A DNA stretch of 33,563 nt from a virus (IMGVR_UViG_2541047945_000006); one strand, 5' to 3'. Positions 1,915 through 33,563 are shown, numbered from the stretch's first letter. The notes: generated by a model from the sequence alone, not told the origin. Numbers and translations: made by a program.

Positions 1915-2819
1915 CAATTAACCTCCTGCGGCGGTTCCGGTAGCGGCATCCAGTGAGTTGCTTGCTCAATACCATTACCCGACTTAATCGTTGCATCTCC
2001 GCGCCGAAAAGTGCTTCCGGTATAGCGTGCGGAGCATATTAGCGGTTCAACCAGAGAGCTATCGAAATTCACCGAAATGAGCACGTTCTGATTCTTCTCA
2101 GGCATTCGCTCACTACAGCTTATCCAACTATCCGGAGTTACCGGATAGTTGCCCGATAGTGCATTCTGCTCCAGTGATGCTTTTACAAACCACGCTGCCT
2201 GAACTATAACGCCATGAATCCAGCGCAAATCAGCATCGCGATCTTTCTTTTTCATCTTTTCGCCACTTAAGGCCTTGCTTATGTGGCTGCGTACCAGGTC
2301 TTCATGTAATTCCTTCGTCTCCTCAATGGTGAAACCACCAGGCAGAAGAGCCGGAGTTACCGGAGAGCTGGTTGACGCTTCCGGGATTTCCCGAAAATTA
2401 TTGGTTGACGAATTCTTGCTTTCCCGAAAGTTTCCGGACTGAAGCATGGCGGTGCGGCAGGCGTTCCATATTTCGGCAGCAATATCGCGCTCGCTATCGG
2501 TTAATTTGTACGTGGAAACATAGCCAGAGAGCATTTCTACGTTTTCCGGAGTTGCTTCTTCCGGCACTACCGGCGCTGGCGGGGCGATGCGTCCAAGCAA
2601 CTTATTTACCTCTTTCGCCATCGCGTCATATTTATCTAAATGGCGATTAGCTTCTAAGCAGACTCGGCGCATCTGATCTGAGTTAACTCGTTTAACTGGA
2701 TCTGCTTCCAGCGATGCCAGCGCAATCCGTGCCAGTTCCATTTGTTCACCACGGGTAAGCCCGTTTTCAAGCGGATTTTTAATGAACAATTCAATACGTT
2801 CTTTGGTAATAGTGGTCAT
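1914..2819 (-). CDS. Phage protein with C-terminal DUF551-like region
   Basis: 301-aa ORF, AAGGAG SD 7 nt upstream; C-terminal W...SERMPE...HWMPLPEPP pattern recalls DUF551 proteins common in the accessory region of lambdoid prophages. Confidence 0.7.
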   Translation of the reverse strand: MTTITKERIELFIKNPLENGLTRGEQMELARIALASLEADPVKRVNSDQMRRVCLEANRHLDKYDAMAKEVNKLLGRIAPPAPVVPEEATPENVEMLSGYVSTYKLTDSERDIAAEIWNACRTAMLQSGNFRESKNSSTNNFREIPEASTSSPVTPALLPGGFTIEETKELHEDLVRSHISKALSGEKMKKKDRDADLRWIHGVIVQAAWFVKASLEQNALSGNYPVTPDSWISCSERMPEKNQNVLISVNFDSSLVEPLICSARYTGSTFRRGDATIKSGNGIEQATHWMPLPEPPQEVN

Positions 2820-2829
2820 GTGTTACTCC

Positions 2830-3093
2830 TTAACCCGCAGTGCTTTCAACTGATGAGGGGAACAAAATCTTTTCATCAAACCCTGCATTCATATCATGAA
2901 CAGCAACACACCAATCCATCGACGAACGATTATCAAGAGCCTCCATGATTTCATCCATGCGGCGTAGGTCATACAGGTAAATGCTTTTATCGCCAATGGT
3001 GTAAAAGCCAATTTTTTTCGGTGATGGACAGCGATCAAGAACGTCCTGTAATTCGCTCAACCATGCTTGTTCTTTTTTTGTCAAAGTTGCCAT
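2830..3093 (-). CDS. Hypothetical protein (87 aa)
   Basis: ATG at 3091-3093 with AAGGAG SD; tightly packed in the leftward operon. Confidence 0.55.
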   Translation of the reverse strand: MATLTKKEQAWLSELQDVLDRCPSPKKIGFYTIGDKSIYLYDLRRMDEIMEALDNRSSMDWCVAVHDMNAGFDEKILFPSSVESTAG

Positions 3094-3094
3094 A

Positions 3095-3619
3095 TCACTC
3101 TCCTTTGATGCGAATGCCAGTGGTACTCATTCTCCTGATTTCCCAGAGCACACGAGGAACACCACCGTTTCCGACCGGATCGCGTTTACTCCGCAGGGCG
3201 ACGCTTGATTCCGCCCAGCTTTTTCTTGGAGGAAGCTCTTTCACACGAACAAAACCAGCTGCGCGGAGAGATGCTCCTGATTCATCTGCCTGGGTGTACG
3301 TAATGCAACGTTGATAACCCATAGCCTTTGCTGCCCGCCAGACTTTACGTAAAAAATCGCAGATATAGCCCTTCATTTTTTCGTGCCAATCTCGATCATT
3401 CCCATTGCACCAACCATCAGGTGGAGTCCAGTTTTCTATCAGAGCAGCCATTTTCTTTGCTTTCGCCGGAGTAGCTGTTGCGGTATCGCAGTAATGACGA
3501 GTGTCAACCAACGTATCCATACCATCGATATCAAGTACGCAAAACCATGTGTGATTCGGCATTTCAACAGATGGTATTTGTTGCCCACGTCGACGTTTAT
3601 CAATAAGACATACACTCAC
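3095..3619 (-). CDS. Hypothetical phage protein; possibly Mom-like GNAT-fold DNA-modification protein
   Basis: 174-aa ORF with GTG start preceded by AAGGAGG; motif CITYTQADESGASLRAAGF resembles what I recall of Mom-family acyltransferase-like proteins. Family assignment is tentative. Confidence 0.6.
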   Translation of the reverse strand: MSVCLIDKRRRGQQIPSVEMPNHTWFCVLDIDGMDTLVDTRHYCDTATATPAKAKKMAALIENWTPPDGWCNGNDRDWHEKMKGYICDFLRKVWRAAKAMGYQRCITYTQADESGASLRAAGFVRVKELPPRKSWAESSVALRSKRDPVGNGGVPRVLWEIRRMSTTGIRIKGE

Positions 3620-3793: not shown

Positions 3794-4087
3794 TCAGTCA
3801 TTACTGATAGCGCCATAGCGTGAGCGGTAATTACGCAGGCGAGGGTCAATTTCAGGGAAGTGGGTATATGTGGCTTTGCGGAATGGTCGGATTGATGTCT
3901 GGTAAATTCGCTCGCGTTCTTCTTTCTCTGCAAGCCATATACAGTGGCGAAATTCCTTTTCCTCTTTCGTTTCCTGCGGTAGAGACATTATTCGATCGTA
4001 GTTTTTTCTGAATTTATCCAGCACCTCCGATACGGAATTGCCGGAACAGCGGCGTGGGTCATCCGCACCATACAGAGGCGCTGGCAT
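3794..4087 (-). CDS. Hypothetical protein (97 aa)
   Basis: ATG at 4085-4087 with AAGGA SD; fits the operon packing between ssb and downstream genes. Confidence 0.5.
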
Positions 4088-15550: not shown

Positions 15551-16193
15551 TGGCAGCAAATACCGAAATATTTGGGTAGTTGGCGATCTGCACGGATGCT
15601 ACACGAACCTGATGAAAAAACTGGAGACGATAGGATTCGACACCAAAAAAGACCTGCTTATCTCGGTTGGCGATTTGGTTGATCGCGGTACAGAGAACGT
15701 CGAATGCCTGGAATTAATCACATTCCCCTGGTTCAGAGCTGTACGTGGAAACCATGAGCAAATGATGATTGATGGCTTATCAGAGCGTGGAAACGTCAAT
15801 CACTGGCTGTTTAATGGCGGTGGCTGGTTCTTTAATCTCGATTACGACAAAGAAATTCTGGCTAAAGCTCTTGCCCATAAAGCAGATGAACTTCCGTTAA
15901 TCATTGAACTGGTGAGTAAAGGTAAAAAATATGTCATCTGCCACGCCGATTATCCTTGTGACGAATACGAATTTGGAAAGCCAGTTGATTATCAGCAGGT
16001 AATCTGGAACCGCGAACGAATCAGCAACTCACAAGACGGGGTCGTGAAAGAAATCAAAGGCGCGGACACGTTCATCTTTGGTCATACGCCAGCAGTGAAA
16101 CCACTCAAATTTGCCAACCAGATGTATATCGATACTGGGGCAGTGTTCTGCGGAAATCTCACATTGATTCAGGTACAGGGAGAAGGCGCATGA
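15528..16193 (+). CDS. Ser/Thr protein phosphatase (lambda NinI-like)
   Basis: Calcineurin-like metallophosphatase motifs (GDLHG, GDLVDRG, GNHE); start taken at internal ATG 15528 (MRYYEKIDG) to give the 221-aa lambda-like protein. Confidence 0.85.
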
Positions 16194-16813
16194 GACTCGA
16201 AAGCGTAGCTAAATTTCATTCGCCAAAAAGCCCGATGATGAGTGACTCACCACGGGCCACGGCTTCTGACTCTCTTTCCGGTACTGATGTGATGGCTGCT
16301 ATGGGGATGGCGCAATCACAAGCCGGATTCGGAATGGCTGCATTCTGTGGTAAGCACGAACTCAGCCAGAACGACAAACAAAAGGCTATCAACTATCTGA
16401 TGCAATTTGCACACAAGGTATCGGGGAAATACCGTGGTGTGGCAAAGCTTGAAGGAAATACTAAGGCAAAGGTACTGCAAGTGCTCGCAACATTCGCTTA
16501 TGCGGATTATTGCCGTAGTGCCGCGACGCCGGGCGCAAGATGCAGAGATTGCCACGGTACAGGCCGTGCGGTTGATATAGCCAAAACGGAGCAGTGGGGG
16601 AGAGTTGTTGAGAAAGAGTGCGGAAGATGCAAAGGTGTCGGCTATTCAAGAATGCCAGCAAGCGCCGCATATCGCGCTGTAACGATGCTAATCCCAAACC
16701 TTACTCAACCCACCTGGTCACGCACTGTTAAGCCACTGTATGACGCTCTGGTGGCGCAATGCCACAAGGAAGAGTCAATCGCAGACAACATTTTGAATTC
16801 AGTTACACGTTAA
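16190..16813 (+). CDS. Q: Late-gene antiterminator Q
   Basis: 207-aa ORF matching lambda Q from memory, including the zinc-binding cysteines (CRDCHGTG...CGRCKG). Confidence 0.9.
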
Positions 16814-16855: not shown

Positions 16856-16884
16856 TTGACTTTTTGAATAAAGTTGGGTAAATT
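16856..16884 (+). promoter_or_regulatory. Late promoter pR' (-35 TTGACT, 17-bp spacer, -10 TAAATT) with associated qut region
   Basis: Near-consensus sigma70 elements directly downstream of Q; the sequence closely resembles the lambda pR' region as I recall it. Confidence 0.7.
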
Positions 16885-16891
16885 TGACCCA

Positions 16892-17086
16892 ACGATGGGT
16901 TAATTCGCTCGTTGTGGTAGTGAGATAAAAAGAGGCGGCGCTTACTACCGATTCCGCCTAGTTGGTCACTTCGACGTATCGTCTGGAACTCCAACCATCG
17001 CAGGCTGAGAGGTCTGTAAAATGCAATCCCGAAACAATTCGCAGGTAATAGTTAGAGCCTGCACAACGGTTTCGGGATTTTTTATT
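16892..17086 (+). ncRNA. 6S-RNA-like pR' leader transcript ending at tR' (hairpin 17025-17077 plus T-run)
   Basis: Predicted start about 16892; terminator stem ATCCCGAAAC...GTTTCGGGAT followed by TTTTTTATTT; resembles the lambda 6S RNA / tR' sequence from memory. Confidence 0.6.
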
Positions 17087-17087
17087 T

Positions 17088-17162
17088 GGGTCAGTCGTAT
17101 AAAGGTCATTACGGAAGGCTGTTAACCTTCTTATCGTGGTTCGAGTCCACGCTGTCCCGCCA
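17088..17162 (+). tRNA. tRNA-like gene, predicted anticodon GUU (Asn)
   Basis: Manual cloverleaf: acceptor GGGTCAG/CTGTCCC (one mismatch), U8, D-loop with GG, perfect 5-bp anticodon stem with loop CTGTTAA, T-arm CGTGG-TTCGAGT-CCACG, encoded GCCA 3' end. Confidence 0.5.
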
Positions 17163-17361: not shown

Positions 17362-17607
17362 ATGAAATCAATGGACAAAATCTCAACTGGCATTGCCTAC
17401 GGAACATCTGCTGGTAGTGCGGGATACTGGTTTTTGCAGTGGTTGGATCAGGTCAGTCCGTCACAGTGGGCTGCGATTGGAGTGCTTGGAAGCCTTGTGT
17501 TGGGTTTTCTCACTTATCTGACAAATCTGTATTTCAAAATCAGAGAAGACAGACGAAAGGCTGCGAGTGAACCGCCCCGGGTTTCCTGGAGAGTATTTTA
17601 TCTGTGA
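17362..17607 (+). CDS. S: Phage-21-type pinholin S21 with IS-altered C-terminus
   Basis: Dual-start MKSMDKI and SAR-type TM region match S21 from memory; the last codons (ARGE-stop in intact S21) are replaced by a read-through into the IS end ([13 protein letters not shown]). Confidence 0.8.
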
Positions 17608-17609
17608 AC

Positions 17610-18500
17610 TCAGGCTGCCAGATCATCGTTTCCGATGGAAGCATAATAAGCTTTTTCTGCTTCTGCCGGAGGAGTATGGCCCAGCCTTTCCAGCAATCGT
17701 CGATTGTTATACCAGTCCACCCACGTGAGTGTGGCCAGTTCCACTTCTGCACGGTTTTTCCAGCTCTTACGGTGTATTACCTCCGCTTTGTAAAGACCAT
17801 TGATGCTCTCCGCCATCGCGTTGTCATACGAGTCGCCTGTACTTCCTGTTGATGCCAGTAATCCGGCTTCCTTAAGCCGCTGTGTGTAGGCCAGCGATAC
17901 ATACTGAGAACCTTTATCACTGTGATGGACCGTGCCGGACGGTCGACGGGCCCATAACGCCTGCTCCAGTGCATCCAGCACGAATGTCGTCTCCATGGAC
18001 GATGAGACCCGCCACCCCACAATGTATCCGGCAAACACATCAATGATGAACGCCACATAGACGAAGCCCTGCCATGTGCTGACGTAAGTAAAATCAGCCA
18101 CCCACAGCTGGTCAGGTCGTTCTGCCACGAACTGACGGTTTACGCGGTCGCCTGCGGCAACGGCTTTCCGGCTGATGGTCGTACGGACCTTTTTACCCCG
18201 GAGAACACCGGCAAGTCCCATAACCGCCATGAGACGTGCCACAGTGCATCTGGCCACTCTGATACCTTCCCGTAACAACTGACGCCAGACTTTACGCACA
18301 CCGTATACCTTGTGATTTTCATCGTATACGCGCTGTATCTCTTTCTTCAGCCAGTCATCGCGCTGCGCACGGGCACTGCGTTTATCCGGATGATGTCGCT
18401 GTTGCTGACAGTGGTAATACGTTGACGGGGCAATATGCAGTTCGCTGCATAGCGGTCCGACCCCGTACTGCTCACGCAGCTTATCCAGCAGTGGCATCAT
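17610..18500 (-). CDS. IS3-family transposase OrfB (DDE integrase-like catalytic domain)
   Basis: 296-aa ORF of typical IS3-family OrfB character; overlaps orfA as expected for -1 frameshift fusion. Confidence 0.85.
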
Positions 18501-18823
18501 TTTTTCCAGAGGCGGTCGAACTCCGCCTTCGCAAAATAAGCGGAAGCCTGGCGAAGGATATCGTTACTGCGGCGCAGTTCACGATTTTCACGCTCCAGCT
18601 CTTTCAGACGCTGACGTTCAGCGGTGGTGAGCCCTCCATCACCGCCCCCGGTATCCCGCTCATGCTGGCGAACCCAGACACGCAGAGTCTCCGGCGTACA
18701 GCCAATCTTTGGAGCAATGGAACAAATTGTCGCCCATTGTGAGTCATATTCGCCCTGACTTTCCAGAACCATACGGACTGCCCGTTGACGGACTTCAGGG
18801 GAAAAACGAGTATTTTTAGTCAT
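18497..18823 (-). CDS. IS3-family transposase OrfA (HTH plus leucine zipper)
   Basis: 108-aa ORF ([57 protein letters not shown]...) that I recall as IS629/IS1203-type OrfA. Confidence 0.85.
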
Positions 18824-18889
18824 CCTGTTTACCTCTTTCTCAGGAAGTTTAGTCTCCAGGATTCCCGGGGCGGTTCAGAGAGGTGAATA

Positions 18890-19387
18890 ATGCCTCCATC
18901 ATTACGAAAAGCCGTTGCTGCTGCTATTGGTGGCGGGGCTATTGCCATAGCATCTGTGTTAATCACTGGCCCAAGTGGTAACGATGGTCTGGAAGGTGTG
19001 AGACATAATCCTTACAAAGACATAGTTGGTGTATGGACTGTATGTTACGGGCATACAGGAAAAGACATCATTCCCGGTAAAACGTATACCGAAGCAGAAT
19101 GCAAAGCCCTCCTGAATAAAGACCTTGCCACGGTCGCCAGACAAATTAACCCGTACATCAAAGTCGATATACCGGAAACAACGCGCGGCGCTCTTTACTC
19201 GTTCGTTTACAACGTGGGTGCAGGCAATTTCAGAACATCGACGCTTCTTCGCAAAATCAACCAGGGTGATATCAAAGGTGCGTGTGACCAGCTACGTCGC
19301 TGGACATACGCTGGCGGTAAGCAATGGAAAGGGCTGATGACCCGTCGTGATATTGAGCGTGAAGTCTGTTTGTGGGGGCAGCAATGA
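18890..19387 (+). CDS. R: SAR endolysin (phage 21 R21-like lysozyme)
   Basis: N-terminal Gly/Ala-rich signal-anchor-release domain ([18 protein letters not shown]) followed by a lysozyme domain; begins 10 nt after the IS end. Confidence 0.85.
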
Positions 19388-19821
19388 GCAGGTTAACCGC
19401 GATTATCTCCGCTCTGATTATCAGCATCATCGTCTGCCTGTCATGGGCTGTTAATCATTACCGTGATAACGCCATCGCCTACAAAGAGCAGCGCGATAAG
19501 GCCGCATCCACAATCGCTGACATGCAGAAGCGTCAACGTGATGTAGCAGAACTTGACGCCAGATACACAAAGGAGCTTGCTGATGCTAACGCGACTATCG
19601 AAAGTCTCCGTGCTGATGTTTCTGCTGGTCGTAAGCGCCTGCAAGTCGCCGCCACCTGTGCAAAGTCAACGACCGGAGCCAGCAGCATGGGCGATGGAGA
19701 AAGCCCAAGACTTACAGCAGATGCTGAACTCAATTATTACCGTCTACGAAGTGGAATCGACAGGATAACCGCGCAGGTTAACTACCTGCAGGAGTACATC
19801 AGGACGCAATGCCTTCGATGA
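19384..19821 (+). CDS. Rz: Rz i-spanin
   Basis: Start at internal ATG ([31 protein letters not shown]...) overlapping the R stop; resembles lambda Rz from memory. Confidence 0.8.
19583..19768 (+). CDS. Rz1: Rz1 o-spanin (lipoprotein) embedded in Rz in the +1 frame
   Basis: 61-aa ORF with lipobox LVVSAC and a proline-rich mature region, nested inside Rz. Confidence 0.65.
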
Positions 19822-20023: not shown

Positions 20024-20164
20024 TCTGAATTTCACAGCGCATCTCACGCGCATATTAACGAGAGCCTTTCAGTAAGCGAGCCTGAGAAATGCCGTTATAG
20101 GTGGCGACCTCTCTCGGGCGGCTTTTCTGTGAGACAGGCTCACTTTCTAAAAGGTAAAGACGCT

Positions 20165-20662
20165 ATGAAAGCAATCACGCTTTTTAATACACCGATTCGT
20201 GTTGATGAATCAGGAATGATCTGCCTCACTGATATGTGGAAAGCCAGTGGTAAAAGTGAATCTGAATCTCCGTACCACTACCTGCGAAACAAGCAGACCA
20301 AAGAGTTCTTAGCCGAGCTGGAGAAAAACCACGAATCTGTGGTTTTTACTGAGCGCGGTGTACACGGTGGAACATATGGCGGGAAGTTTGTTGCTTATGA
20401 TTATGCAGCATGGCTAAACCCCGGGTTCAAGTACGCGGCCTATAAAGTCCTCGATGACTACTTCACCGGAGAACTTCAGCATCGCAACAGCTTAAGTGCG
20501 CAGCTCAACATGAAATGTCATGAGTTTGACCAGAAGAAAGACATGGCGAGCTTCTGCGGACAAGGGCTGGCGGCATGGCGCTATACGAAGCCAGTGTTGG
20601 TCGCTGAGATTAACTCCCTGGCTAACCAGCTGCAGATTACGATCCCCGGGCTTCCGGGATGA
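20165..20662 (+). CDS. KilA-N domain protein (moron between lysis and packaging genes)
   Basis: Start at internal ATG (MKAITLFN...); KilA-N/APSES-like features (...GTYGGKFVAYDYAAWLNPGFKYAAYKVL...). Confidence 0.6.
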   Translation: MKAITLFNTPIRVDESGMICLTDMWKASGKSESESPYHYLRNKQTKEFLAELEKNHESVVFTERGVHGGTYGGKFVAYDYAAWLNPGFKYAAYKVLDDYFTGELQHRNSLSAQLNMKCHEFDQKKDMASFCGQGLAAWRYTKPVLVAEINSLANQLQITIPGLPG

Positions 20663-32121: not shown

Positions 32122-33329
32122 ATGGCTACGTGGCAACAGGGTATTAATTCTGGTGGTTTTCTGGCTGGCATTGGTGCGCAAAACGAGAATGCGCCAAAGG
32201 CAAGCGACATTAACGCAACGCTTGGTCTGATCCGCGAAAACAATGAACTGGCTCGCTCAGGTGCAAATAACGTTGGTCTGACCGCGTTACGTGGTCTGGC
32301 TGGAGTTGCTGATATTTACAATCAGGAACAGCAACAGAAAGCGATTAGTGCGTTCAATAAGGTTCACGCTGATGCATGGGCTTCTGGTGATCCATCGGGA
32401 CTATTTAAGTTTGCCAAGGAAAATCCAGCGTTTGTTGCACAGGCACAACAGGCGTTTTCCGGTCTTAATGAGCAGCAACGTAACGATATGGGCGATTTAG
32501 CCATGAGGGCTAACGTCGCTCTTTCTCAGGGACCGGAAGCCTACAGTAAATTCATTACTGACAACAAGGACAGGTTAAATCGCGTTGGTGCTAATGCTGA
32601 CTGGATGATTCAGACAGGTATCCAGAATCCAGAGCAGCTATCACACATGCTGACTACTATGACGCTAGGGGCTGTTGGTCCGGATAAAATGCTGGATTAT
32701 CAGGATAAGATGGTTGGTCGCCAACTTGAGAAAGGGCGATTGGATGAAAGCATCCGTCAGGCTGACATGGAGAACGCGAGAGGATGGGCAAATATCCAAA
32801 ACGCTCAACTAGACAGGGCTCAGCGGGCACAAATGCATAATGATAACGTAGCCCTGAAGTTGCAGGAATTAGGGATGAAACAACAGGAAAGCGGAAAGAT
32901 TGACCCAAAACTTGTTCGAGATCTGAATAGTGATATTAATGGGTTCTCAAAGAATTATTCTGCAATGCGCAGTGCTTCTGACAACCTACAAGCCCTTGGG
33001 AAGCGCAACACTCCAGCCGCGCAGTTGGGAATGATTTTCAACTATATGAAATCGCTGGATCCGCAATCTGTGGTACGCGAAGGTGAGCAAGTGCAGGTAA
33101 AACGCACTGATGGAATATTCGGCACACTTGGTAACTATGTTAGCCAATTATCTAACGGCAAGATGCTGAATAATGAGCAAGTCCAAGACTTAATCAACAC
33201 CTCAAAACTGATGGCAAATACTGAAGGCGAAAAGTTTAACCAGCAAATGGATGATTATCTTTCAACTTATGGAGATTCTCTCCCCAGCGGACTAACTAAG
33301 CAATTGCAATCCAGAAAAGCCAAGCTGTA
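32122..33329 (+). pseudogene. DNA ejection protein gene (P22 gp20-like) truncated by IS insertion
   Basis: gp20-like ORF in the syntenic position; the reading frame runs into the IS end at 33330, giving the same foreign tail [12 protein letters not shown] seen on the holin; P22 gp20 is about 470 aa versus about 403 native residues here. Confidence 0.75.
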
Positions 33330-33563
33330 TGAACCGCCCCGGGTTTCCTGGAGAGTATTTTATCTGTGAACTCAGGCTGCCAGATCATCGTTTCCGATGG
33401 AAGCATAATAAGCTTTTTCTGCTTCTGCCGGAGGAGTATGGCCCAGCCTTTCCAGCAATCGTCGATTGTTATACCAGTCCACCCACGTGAGTGTGGCCAG
33501 TTCCACTTCTGCACGGTTTTTCCAGCTCTTACGGTGTATTACCTCCGCTTTGTAAAGACCATT
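33330..33563 (-). mobile_element. Second IS629-like copy, same orientation as the first, cut by the window edge
   Basis: Sequence 33330-33563 matches 17568-17801 along its whole length by eye, starting with the same terminal repeat TGAACCGCCCCGGGTTTCCTGGAGA. Confidence 0.85.
33372..33563 (-). CDS. IS3-family transposase OrfB, 3' portion only (partial at window edge)
   Basis: Placed by offset identity with orfB of the first IS copy (17610-18500). Confidence 0.7.
   Translation of the reverse strand, partial: NGLYKAEVIHRKSWKNRAEVELATLTWVDWYNNRRLLERLGHTPPAEAEKAYYASIGNDDLAA

What the first reader, a model, noticed from the sequence alone, without database searches (positions are those of the whole stretch)
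17362..18889. IS629-like element inserted two codons before the pinholin stop, creating an extended holin tail
Removing the 1310-bp IS and one copy of the GAG target duplication restores ...KAARGE-stop, the S21 C-terminus as I recall it. With the IS present, the holin reads into the IS end and gains a 13-residue tail ([13 protein letters not shown]), 81 aa in total. The cytoplasmic C-terminus of holins tunes lysis timing, so this prophage may have altered or lost lysis control. The endolysin start is now 10 nt from the IS end and separated from the holin by 1.3 kb.
Basis: seen in the sequence. Interest (0 to 1): 0.55.

Follow-up and report, generated by a model that had tools for sequence, protein, structure and literature searches.

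The report
IS629 insertion in prophage pinholin gene
A common E. coli jumping gene (IS629) has landed in the last codons of a prophage's lysis-timing gene, swapping its final 3 residues for 13 IS-encoded ones; this is real but ordinary prophage decay, and a second IS629 copy in the same prophage probably does more damage.

Summary
A 1310-bp IS629 (17568-18877, 2 mismatches to a curated IS629, 3-bp GAG duplication) sits inside codon 69 of a phage-21 S21 pinholin/antiholin gene. In-silico excision restores a 71-aa protein identical to phage 21 S, and an S/R junction identical to phage 21 over 36 compared bases. The chimeric 81-aa protein is already public (WP_021572768.1, E. coli UMEA 3609-1) but was found on only 2 contigs. 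No complete E. coli genome (5,426) and no other collection scanned carries this junction.

The functional reading is only partly supported. Published S21 truncation and fusion data show that the region beyond K56 is largely dispensable for pore formation. The endolysin's ribosome-binding site survives, helped by the target duplication, and its predicted accessibility is unchanged. The partner endolysin is of the signal-anchor-release (SAR) type. A modest timing shift is possible; loss of lysis is unlikely.

It truncates a P22 gp20-type ejection-protein gene and gives it the same IS-encoded tail. One independent IS629-type insertion lies 3 nt away in a different holin allele (strain 2002-3211), but wider scans gave no sign of a hot spot.

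Verdict: real, well delimited, low interest.

The parts
16190..16813 (+). Late-gene antiterminator Q (207 aa)
   Evidence: Pfam PF03589 Antiterm, E=1.5e-57. Its resemblance to lambda Q rests on my recollection of the lambda Q sequence.
16856..16884 (+). Late promoter candidate (pR'-like): TTGACT-17 nt-TAAATT
   Evidence: Consensus scan, 9/12. It lies between Q and the lysis genes. Identity of these hexamers with lambda pR' is from my own knowledge. Function is inferred.
17028..17083 (+). Terminator-like hairpin (cccgaaac...gtttcggg) followed by a T-run; tR'-like position
   Evidence: Read directly from the sequence. Not called by the scan because the loop is long. Inferred.
17088..17162 (+). 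tRNA-Asn (GTT)
   Evidence: ARAGORN and Rfam RF00005. Same arrangement as in phage 21.
17168..17243 (+). tRNA-Thr (TGT)
   Evidence: ARAGORN and Rfam RF00005. Same arrangement as in phage 21.
17362..17607 (+). Chimeric S21 antiholin/pinholin gene (81 aa from ATG 17362; 78 aa from the second start, ATG 17371). Residues 1-68 are native; the last 13 ([13 protein letters not shown]) come from the junction and the IS629 end.
   Evidence: Pfam PF04971 'Bacteriophage P21 holin S', E=1.3e-35. Public as WP_021572768.1.
17565..17567 (.). Left copy of the 3-bp target-site duplication (GAG)
17568..18877 (-). IS629 (IS3 family), 1310 bp, transposase genes antisense to the late operon
   Evidence: 1308/1310 identical, without indels, to the curated IS629 of LC567828.1. 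99.6-99.9% identical to many IS629 copies in Stx phages.
17568..17608 (.). IS629 terminal inverted repeat at the orfB-distal end (supplies the holin's new tail and stop codon)
17610..18500 (-). IS629 orfB (296 aa; integrase-core rve domain)
   Evidence: Pfam rve/HTH_21/rve_3. NCBIfam transpos_IS3, E=4.4e-94.
18426..18542 (-). ALIL pseudoknot spanning the orfA/orfB overlap (in RefSeq-annotated IS3 copies this feature lies inside a transposase CDS flagged 'programmed frameshift')
   Evidence: Rfam RF01497, 120.2 bits against a gathering score of 50. Annotation context.
18497..18823 (-). IS629 orfA (108 aa; HTH_Tnp_1)
18837..18877 (.). IS629 terminal inverted repeat at the orfA-proximal end, next to the endolysin gene
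18878..18880 (.). Right copy of the target-site duplication (GAG). Its last G is the first base of the endolysin ribosome-binding site GAGGT (18880-18884).
   Evidence: RBS position taken from the phage 21 annotation and the junction comparison.
18881..18890 (+). Displaced 3' remnant of S21 (A GGT GAA TAA), no longer translated as part of the holin
18890..19387 (+). R21-type SAR endolysin (165 aa), intact
   Evidence: Pfam PF00959. PDB 3hde/4zpu, E about 1e-105 over residues 1-165. 155/165 residues identical to phage 21 R. Gly/Ala-rich N-terminal segment and E35/D44/T50 read from the sequence.
19384..19821 (+). Rz i-spanin (145 aa from ATG 19384)
   Evidence: Pfam PF03245. Gene call in the public contig.
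19583..19768 (+). Rz1 o-spanin candidate embedded in Rz (+1 frame), with a lipobox LVVSAC followed by a proline-rich stretch
   Evidence: ORF 19553..19768 and its translation. Assignment inferred from the lipobox and the embedded position.
32122..33369 (+). P22 gp20-type ejection (injection) protein gene truncated by the second IS629. 403 native residues plus the same IS-encoded tail [12 protein letters not shown]. Restored length 449 aa.
   Evidence: PF16928 Inj_translocase. phrog_917, E=3e-140. Restoration.
33330..33563 (-). Second IS629 copy, same orientation, running off the window. Simple insertion with a GTA duplication.
   Evidence: 100% identical to 17568-17801. Right junction and duplication seen in the public scaffold.

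Best explanation
This is a simple, strain-specific transposition. An intact IS629 (IS3 family) inserted into the 3' end of the S21-type pinholin/antiholin gene of a mosaic lambdoid prophage of E. coli UMEA 3609-1. The prophage has an HK97/HK544-like early region, a Q antiterminator, a phage-21 lysis cassette and a P22/CUS-3-like head module.

Shown:
- The IS duplicated GAG and split codon 69. Translation of S now runs 39 nt into the IS end, replacing RGE with [13 protein letters not shown].
- S and R, which overlap as TAATG in phage 21, are now 1282 nt apart.
- The R ribosome-binding site GAGGT is regenerated by the duplicated G.
- R, Rz and Rz1 are intact.

Inferred:
- On induction, Q-modified RNA polymerase from the late promoter reads through the IS (antisense to the transposase), so R, Rz/Rz1 and the morphogenesis genes are still expressed.
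- The chimeric pinholin still forms pinholes, because both transmembrane domains, the dual-start motif and the membrane-proximal K59 (K56 in S68 numbering) are untouched. At most the triggering time shifts.
- The prophage's ability to make infectious progeny is compromised mainly by the second IS629, in the gp20-type ejection-protein gene, and by the 2.6 kb of added DNA in a headful-packaging genome.

Overall this is ordinary IS-mediated prophage erosion.
For: - Exact anatomy and excision.
- IS identity and boundaries: (1308/1310, no indels). Transposase domains. ALIL pseudoknot.
- The restored protein is the exact sequence named HOLIN_BPP21, seen on at least 1000 contigs.
- The restored 436 nt align in one piece to phage 21 at 97.9%. 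The junction is identical over 36 compared bases, and the RBS is annotated in phage 21.
- Rarity: the exact protein is on 2 contigs. No intact junction in 5,426 complete E. coli genomes. None in the genome, viral or metagenome collections.
- Function: S21-68 C-terminal truncations down to K56 do not impair pore formation, and fusions at residue 56 work. The C-terminus is cytoplasmic and mobile.
- RBS accessibility is similar in both alleles. No promoter-like site on the + strand inside the IS, and only a weak 5-bp terminator-like hairpin there.
- R matches the solved R21 structure at E=2e-105.
- Second IS629 and the gp20 truncation.
- IS629 in O157:H7 sits mostly in prophages (62%), makes 3-4 bp duplications and shows no sequence-specific target (PMC3271280).
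Against: - No experiment on this allele exists. The truncation data concern shortening, not this particular extension.
- The new tail adds one net positive charge (+3 to +4) and several aromatic or hydrophobic residues, and lengthens the cytoplasmic tail from 13 to 23 residues. Any of these could change timing or stability.
- Loss of the S/R overlap could lower R translation if the two are coupled.
- Read-through of 1.28 kb of untranslated antisense IS RNA is assumed from the known properties of Q antitermination, not shown.
- The interior of the IS is a run of Ns in the public scaffold, so the complete IS seen in the window cannot be cross-checked against that record.
Confidence: 0.85

Rival explanations
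1. One reading: the chimeric C-terminus, or the separation of S from R, substantially alters or abolishes lysis control of this prophage.
For: - The tail changes from 13 to 23 cytoplasmic residues, and net charge goes from +3 to +4 with added W/F/Y/L/V.
- In lambda S the charged C-terminus tunes timing (my own knowledge: Blasi et al. 1999).
- The S stop no longer overlaps the R start.
- Long cytoplasmic tails can make membrane proteins FtsH substrates (my own knowledge, untested here).
Against: - S21-68 tolerates removal of everything beyond K56 and fusion of whole protein domains there. S21-68-GFP fusions were used in the pinholin work summarised in PMC9636201.
- The R RBS is intact and equally accessible in silico.
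- SAR endolysins cause lysis without a holin, only less sharply timed (established knowledge; R identity).
Confidence: 0.2
2. The 3' end of class II holin genes is a preferred IS629 target, or such insertions are selected because they blunt prophage killing, so the event is recurrent rather than random.
For: - An independent IS629-type element, in the same orientation and frame, lies 3 nt downstream of the orthologous position in a diverged holin allele in E. coli 2002-3211. That gives a 79-aa protein with the same [12 protein letters not shown] tail.
- The O145:H28 lineage has an IS629-type element abutting a truncated essD holin.
Against: - Only 1 other case in 5,426 complete genomes.
- A degenerate pattern covering both alleles found nothing in viral, metagenome or species-representative genome collections, although it does find the window's own junction.
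- Published analysis found no sequence-specific IS629 target, and 62% of copies lie in prophages anyway.
- The 2002-3211 site is not a clean duplication-flanked insertion.
- The O145 site is different (96 nt away, with a deletion).
Confidence: 0.08
3. Assembly artefact: the IS was placed between S and R by scaffolding or repeat collapse, and the real genome has an intact S21-R21 junction.
For: The public scaffold KE702425.1 has 1130 Ns inside this IS and 1030 Ns inside the second one. IS629 is multicopy, so its interior cannot be assigned from short reads.
Against: - Both junctions are read contiguously from unique DNA into the IS ends in the public scaffold, 100% identical to the window.
- The two flanks carry a matching 3-bp duplication and restore phage 21 sequence exactly. 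A mis-join would not produce this.
Confidence: 0.02

Closest known systems
IS629 (IS3 family) insertions in lambdoid and Stx prophages of E. coli O157:H7 and other STEC
   Same: The same element (99.6-99.9% identity, 1310 bp, 3-bp duplication, orfA/orfB with a frameshift pseudoknot) and the same habit of landing in prophage genes. IS629 position within a prophage is known to change phage phenotype (PMC10810198).
   Different: The host is a non-O157 clinical isolate (UMEA 3609-1). The carrier is a P22/CUS-3-like prophage without stx. The hit is in the last codons of the pinholin gene, a site not found in any complete E. coli genome searched.
Phage 21 lysis cassette (S21-71 antiholin / S21-68 pinholin, R21 SAR endolysin, Rz/Rz1)
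   Same: tRNA-Asn, tRNA-Thr, S, R and the start of Rz are collinear with phage 21 at 96.5% identity. After excision, S is 100% identical and R is 155/165 identical. The dual start MKSM and the R RBS are conserved.
   Different: S carries a 13-residue IS-derived C-terminus in place of RGE. S and R are 1282 nt apart instead of overlapping. Q differs from phage 21's: a 207-aa ORF here against a 489-nt antiterminator CDS in phage 21. The distal Rz/Rz1 sequence also differs from phage 21.
Holin allele of E. coli 2002-3211 (WP_439649399.1, 79 aa) with an IS629-type element at its 3' end
   Same: Same IS family, orientation and reading frame, so the same [12 protein letters not shown] tail. The insertion is 3 nt from the orthologous position.
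   Different: A different holin allele (434/YYZ-2008-like, about 85% nucleotide identity) next to a SASA-family carbohydrate esterase gene. The right side carries an extra partial IS end and no clean duplication. The downstream gene is not R21.
Engineered C-terminal variants of S21-68 (truncations to residue 56, Lsm-ring fusions)
   Same: They alter the same cytoplasmic tail and show that it is largely dispensable for pore assembly.
   Different: Those are laboratory constructs assayed by Ca2+ flux. The variant here is a natural extension of specific sequence and has never been assayed.

Membership tests
IS629 (IS3 family) | Length of about 1310 bp, with ends matching a curated IS629 | tested here: met
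   17568-17877... aligned end to end: 17568-18877 aligns base by base to the mobile_element 'IS3 family IS629' of LC567828.1, 1308/1310, no indels.
IS629 (IS3 family) | Imperfect terminal inverted repeats beginning TGAAC... | tested here: met
   14/14, then 23 of the first 25. 41-nt arms, 78% complementary.
IS629 (IS3 family) | 3-4 bp target-site duplication | tested here: met
   GAG/GAG for copy 1 and GTA/GTA for copy 2. The 3-4 bp size is reported in PMC3271280.
IS629 (IS3 family) | Two overlapping ORFs (orfA with an HTH domain, orfB with a DDE/rve domain) and a frameshift signal | tested here: met
   orfA 108 aa with HTH_Tnp_1; orfB 296 aa with rve; NCBIfam transpos_IS3. The ORFs overlap at 18497-18500. 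ALIL pseudoknot RF01497, 120 bits.
IS629 (IS3 family) | Transposition activity of this copy | not testable with these tools
   All sequence features are intact, but activity needs an experiment.
S21 pinholin / class II holin (PF04971) | Sequence membership | tested here: met
   PF04971, E=1.3e-35, residues 5-67 covering profile positions 1-63 of 64. Residues 1-68 are identical to phage 21 S.
S21 pinholin / class II holin (PF04971) | Dual-start motif giving antiholin (Met1) and holin (Met4) | tested here: met
   MKSMDK... with ATGs at 17362 and 17371. Annotated as S21-71 and S21-68 in phage 21.
S21 pinholin / class II holin (PF04971) | Native short charged cytoplasmic C-terminus (...KAARGE) | tested here: not met
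   The last three residues are replaced and ten are added. The protein is therefore a C-terminal variant, not wild-type S21.
S21 pinholin / class II holin (PF04971) | Forms pinholes and triggers at a defined time | not testable with these tools
   Inferred to be retained from the truncation and fusion data. Not measured for this allele.
SAR endolysin (R21 type) | Phage lysozyme (PF00959) catalytic domain with an N-terminal weakly hydrophobic signal-anchor-release segment | tested here: met
   PF00959, E=5.9e-48. PDB 3hde, full length, E=2.3e-105. 155/165 identical to the phage 21 protein annotated 'SAR endolysin glycosyl hydrolase'. The N-terminus [18 protein letters not shown] is read.
Two-component spanin (Rz/Rz1) | i-spanin with the Rz domain, plus an embedded lipoprotein ORF | tested here: met
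   PF03245, E=8.7e-37. The embedded +1-frame ORF has the lipobox LVVSAC and a Pro-rich stretch.
P22-like (Lederbergvirus-type) prophage | P22-type portal, coat, gp4/gp10/gp26, ejection proteins and tailspike head-binding domain | tested here: met
   Pfam families P22_portal, P22_CoatProtein, P22_Tail-4, Phage_stabilise, P22_gp7, Inj_translocase and Head_binding in the public contig. 94-96% nucleotide identity to CUS-3, phiv205-1 and Kapi1.

The most novel reading that the evidence does not exclude
The most novel reading not excluded has two parts. First, the IS-encoded tail ([12 protein letters not shown], now on both the pinholin and the ejection protein) makes a natural pinholin allele with a clearly shifted lysis clock, through the extra positive charge, membrane-interacting aromatic residues, or a 23-residue cytoplasmic tail that exposes it to FtsH. 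Second, IS629 insertion into the last codons of class II holin genes recurs (two independent events 3 nt apart in diverged alleles) because it is favoured as a way of taming prophage killing without losing the lysis genes.
Probability: 0.07. Interest if true: 0.4.

Novelty: new member of a known kind. Interest (0 to 1): 0.15.

Why it matters
The finding matters little beyond this strain. It is a clean, fully reconstructible example of IS-mediated prophage erosion, in which the target-site duplication happens to preserve the downstream gene's ribosome-binding site. It also offers a ready-made natural C-terminal variant of the best-studied pinholin, which could be compared with wild-type S21 in a simple lysis-timing assay. 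For annotation, the 81-aa 'class II holin family protein' (WP_021572768.1) and the 415-aa ejection protein are IS-fusion artefacts rather than genuine protein variants. The prophage should be scored as probably defective because of two IS629 hits.

Tried and rejected
1. I searched for the same junctions in 5,426 complete E. coli genomes with junction-spanning 120-mers. No identical junction was found. The only left-junction hit (H51) is a different allele and a separate event. The right-junction hits (O145:H28) are two-piece matches at a different site.

2. An exact 32-mer junction scan of species-representative genomes found 0 hits. A degenerate 'holin tail + IS629 end' pattern in viral, metagenome and genome collections also found 0 hits each, with a positive control in the window. 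I therefore dropped the hot-spot idea as a main explanation.

3. I tested whether the GC-rich IS end sequesters the endolysin RBS. Unpaired probabilities in four window sizes showed no consistent difference from the restored allele, so this was rejected. A long-range pairing of the two IS ends in a read-through transcript is thermodynamically possible (-56 kcal/mol duplex), but the arms are 1.2 kb apart and the pairing ends before the RBS. I did not pursue it.

4. I looked for an outward promoter in the IS that could drive R constitutively. There is no sigma-70-like site on the + strand inside the IS, so this was rejected.

5. I tried to read the primary pinholin papers (PMC3670314, PMC2776468, PMC7171912) for C-terminal tag and fusion data. 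They are not held, so I used a preprint and two reviews instead.

6. I tried to find the prophage att repeat to size the prophage exactly. No shared repeat was found within the DNA fetched, so only a lower bound is given.

7. I considered a protein-database search for other IS-tailed holins. I did not run it, because chimeras are hidden inside 90% clusters whose representatives are wild-type length.

Full report
**Observation**

The region reads as the first-stage reader described. An 81-aa ORF (17362-17607, +) ends ...[16 protein letters not shown]. A 1310-bp element occupies 17568-18877. Its ends are inverted repeats (14/14, then 23 of the first 25 bases; 41-nt arms overall), and it is flanked by a GAG direct repeat at 17565-17567 and 18878-18880. 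On the minus strand it carries two overlapping ORFs of 108 and 296 aa.

Deleting the element plus one GAG yields a 71-aa ORF ending ...KAARGE*. Its TAA stop overlaps the ATG of the next gene as TAATG.

- The insertion lies inside codon 69 (AG|A), so three residues (RGE) are replaced.
- The endolysin ATG (18890) is 12 nt from the last IS base, not 10.
- The new holin stop is 1282 nt upstream of that ATG.

**Identity of the element**

The element is IS629.
- It aligns end to end, without indels and with 2 mismatches in 1310, to a mobile_element curated as 'IS3 family IS629' in LC567828.1. That copy also has a 3-bp duplication.
- It is 99.6-99.9% identical to many IS629 copies in Stx phages.
- orfA has HTH_Tnp_1. 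orfB has HTH_21 and rve domains and matches NCBIfam transpos_IS3.
- Rfam finds the ALIL pseudoknot across the orfA/orfB overlap at 120 bits, against a gathering score of 50. In RefSeq-annotated IS3 copies the same feature lies inside a transposase CDS flagged 'programmed frameshift'.

The copy therefore looks complete and potentially active.

**Identity of the interrupted gene**

The restored 71-aa sequence is an exact match to the collection entry named HOLIN_BPP21, and it occurs on at least 1000 contigs. The restored 436-nt S/R segment aligns in one piece to Escherichia phage 21 (OL657228.1) at 97.9% identity. There it is annotated as antiholin S21-71, pinholin S21-68 and SAR endolysin. The S/R junction is identical to phage 21's over the 36 bases compared.

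The homology with phage 21 (96.5%) runs from just before tRNA-Asn, through tRNA-Thr, S and R, into Rz (tRNAs).

The downstream genes are intact:
- The endolysin is 155/165 identical to R21 and matches the solved R21 structure 3hde at E=2e-105 over its full length.
- Rz (PF03245) and an embedded lipoprotein ORF (the Rz1 candidate) follow.

**Context**

The carrier is a mosaic lambdoid prophage.
- The left part of the window has an integrase and an HK97/HK544-like early region.
- Next comes a 207-aa Q antiterminator with a TTGACT-17-TAAATT late-promoter candidate.
- Then the phage-21 lysis cassette.
- Last is a P22/CUS-3-like packaging, head and ejection module.

The window's flanks are 100% identical to scaffold KE702425.1 of E. 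coli UMEA 3609-1 (GCA_000461415.1). That scaffold has runs of N inside both IS copies.

**Rarity**

The exact 81-aa protein (WP_021572768.1, auto-named 'class II holin family protein' or 'phage lysis protein') is on record on only 2 contigs. Neither junction is present intact in 5,426 complete E. coli genomes. The junction is also absent from species-representative genomes, IMG/VR viral contigs and JGI metagenome contigs. The degenerate pattern used for the last three scans does find the window's own junction.

A second IS629 begins at 33330, in the same orientation, and runs off the window. It interrupts ORF 32122-33369, a P22 gp20-type ejection/injection protein (PF16928; phrog_917, E=3e-140). 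By coincidence the frame is the same, so this protein also ends [12 protein letters not shown].

In the public scaffold the right junction shows a GTA duplication. Excision restores a 449-aa protein, so 46 native residues are lost. Both copies keep their own duplications, so the two have not recombined with each other.

The prophage spans at least about 43 kb including 2.6 kb of IS. P22 packages roughly 43.4 kb per head (my own knowledge), so little terminal redundancy would remain. This is an inference.

**Likely consequences**

Shown:
- Both transmembrane segments, the dual-start motif and the membrane-proximal lysine (K59, which is K56 in S68 numbering) are unchanged.
- The R ribosome-binding site GAGGT (18880-18884) is intact. 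Its first G is supplied by the right copy of the duplication.
- Predicted accessibility of the RBS and start codon does not differ consistently between the two alleles.
- No promoter-like site lies on the + strand in the IS, and only a weak 5-bp hairpin with a T-run is found there.

From the literature:
- The C-terminus is cytoplasmic and mobile (PMC7278021).
- S21-68-GFP fusions were used to study pinholes (PMC9636201).

Inferred:
- Q-modified polymerase reads through the IS.
- The chimeric pinholin still works.
- Any effect is a modest change in triggering time. The tail grows from 13 to 23 residues, net charge rises from +3 to +4, and hydrophobic residues are added.
- Because R is a SAR endolysin, even a dead holin would give delayed, gradual lysis rather than none (established knowledge).

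My rough estimate is 60% no or minor timing change, 30% a measurable shift and 10% a non-functional or unstable holin. The gp20 truncation and the added DNA are more likely than the holin change to make the prophage defective for producing infectious phage.

**Recurrence**

One complete genome, E. coli 2002-3211, has an IS629-type element in the same orientation and frame, 3 nt downstream of the orthologous position. It sits in a diverged holin allele of the 434/YYZ-2008 type and gives a 79-aa protein with the same tail. Its right side carries an extra partial IS end and no clean duplication, so it is an independent and more complex event.

The O145:H28 lineage has an IS next to a truncated essD, at a different site.

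The wider scans were negative. Published work found that IS629 has no sequence-specific target and that 62% of copies lie in prophages (PMC3271280). I therefore treat the coincidence as weak evidence only.

**Comparison with known systems, and verdict**

This is IS629 doing what IS629 is known to do in E. coli prophages, at a site not previously catalogued, in the best-studied pinholin gene. A full-text search for papers mentioning both IS629 and holin found one, and it is unrelated.

The finding is a new instance of a known kind. Interest is low (0.15). Its practical value is as an annotation caveat and as a natural S21 C-terminal variant that would be easy to assay.

Noticed in passing
window 33330-33563 (and L006 11209-12556): A second IS629 copy, in the same orientation as the first, inserted with a GTA duplication into a P22 gp20-type ejection-protein gene (32122-33369). 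The truncated protein gets the same IS-encoded tail [12 protein letters not shown], and excision restores 449 aa. The two direct IS copies bracket 14.4 kb (R, Rz/Rz1, KilA-N gene, terminase through gp7) and could mediate its deletion.
   Followed up: yes
whole prophage (window 1-33563 plus L006 to about window-equivalent 42960): The prophage spans at least about 43 kb including 2.6 kb of IS629. For a P22-like headful packager (about 43.4 kb per head in P22, my own knowledge) this leaves little or no terminal redundancy, an additional reason to expect defective progeny. No att repeat was found in the DNA fetched, so the size is a lower bound.
   Followed up: partly
L002 2357-3970 (E. coli 2002-3211, NZ_CP101305.1): An independent IS629-type insertion 3 nt from the orthologous position in a different class II holin allele, next to a SASA-family carbohydrate esterase gene. 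It gives a 79-aa holin with the same tail. The right side has an extra partial IS end (L002 about 3868-3969) and no clean duplication.
   Followed up: partly
L001 1543-2919 (E. coli O145 RM11626-C1 and about 20 related genomes): An IS629-type element abuts an N-terminally truncated essD holin and a truncated integrase next to tRNA-Arg, in a prophage remnant whose neighbouring genes are annotated rrrD, rzpD, iss and ylcI. This is another IS-holin association, at a different site.
   Followed up: partly
window about 17078 and about 19496: Mosaic joints: homology to phage 21 (96.5%) starts just before tRNA-Asn and ends inside Rz. Upstream, the 207-aa Q with a TTGACT/TAAATT promoter candidate differs from phage 21's shorter antiterminator, and the embedded Rz1 candidate differs from phage 21 Rz1.
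   Followed up: partly
L003 6302-7431; L006 11447-12476: The public scaffold of UMEA 3609-1 has runs of N (1130 and 1030) inside both IS629 copies, whereas the window has a complete first copy. The window therefore comes from a different or gap-filled record of the same or a sister strain (two records carry both chimeric proteins).
   Followed up: no
window 20129-20662: A KilA-N / ORF11CD3 domain gene (Rha/antirepressor-like by PHROG) lies between the spanin genes and the small terminase gene. Its function here is unknown.
   Followed up: no
window 17560-17600 and 18845-18895: In a read-through late transcript, the two IS629 ends could pair as a strong long-range RNA duplex (predicted -56 kcal/mol) ending a few nucleotides before the endolysin RBS. 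Whether this forms across 1.2 kb is unknown.
   Followed up: partly
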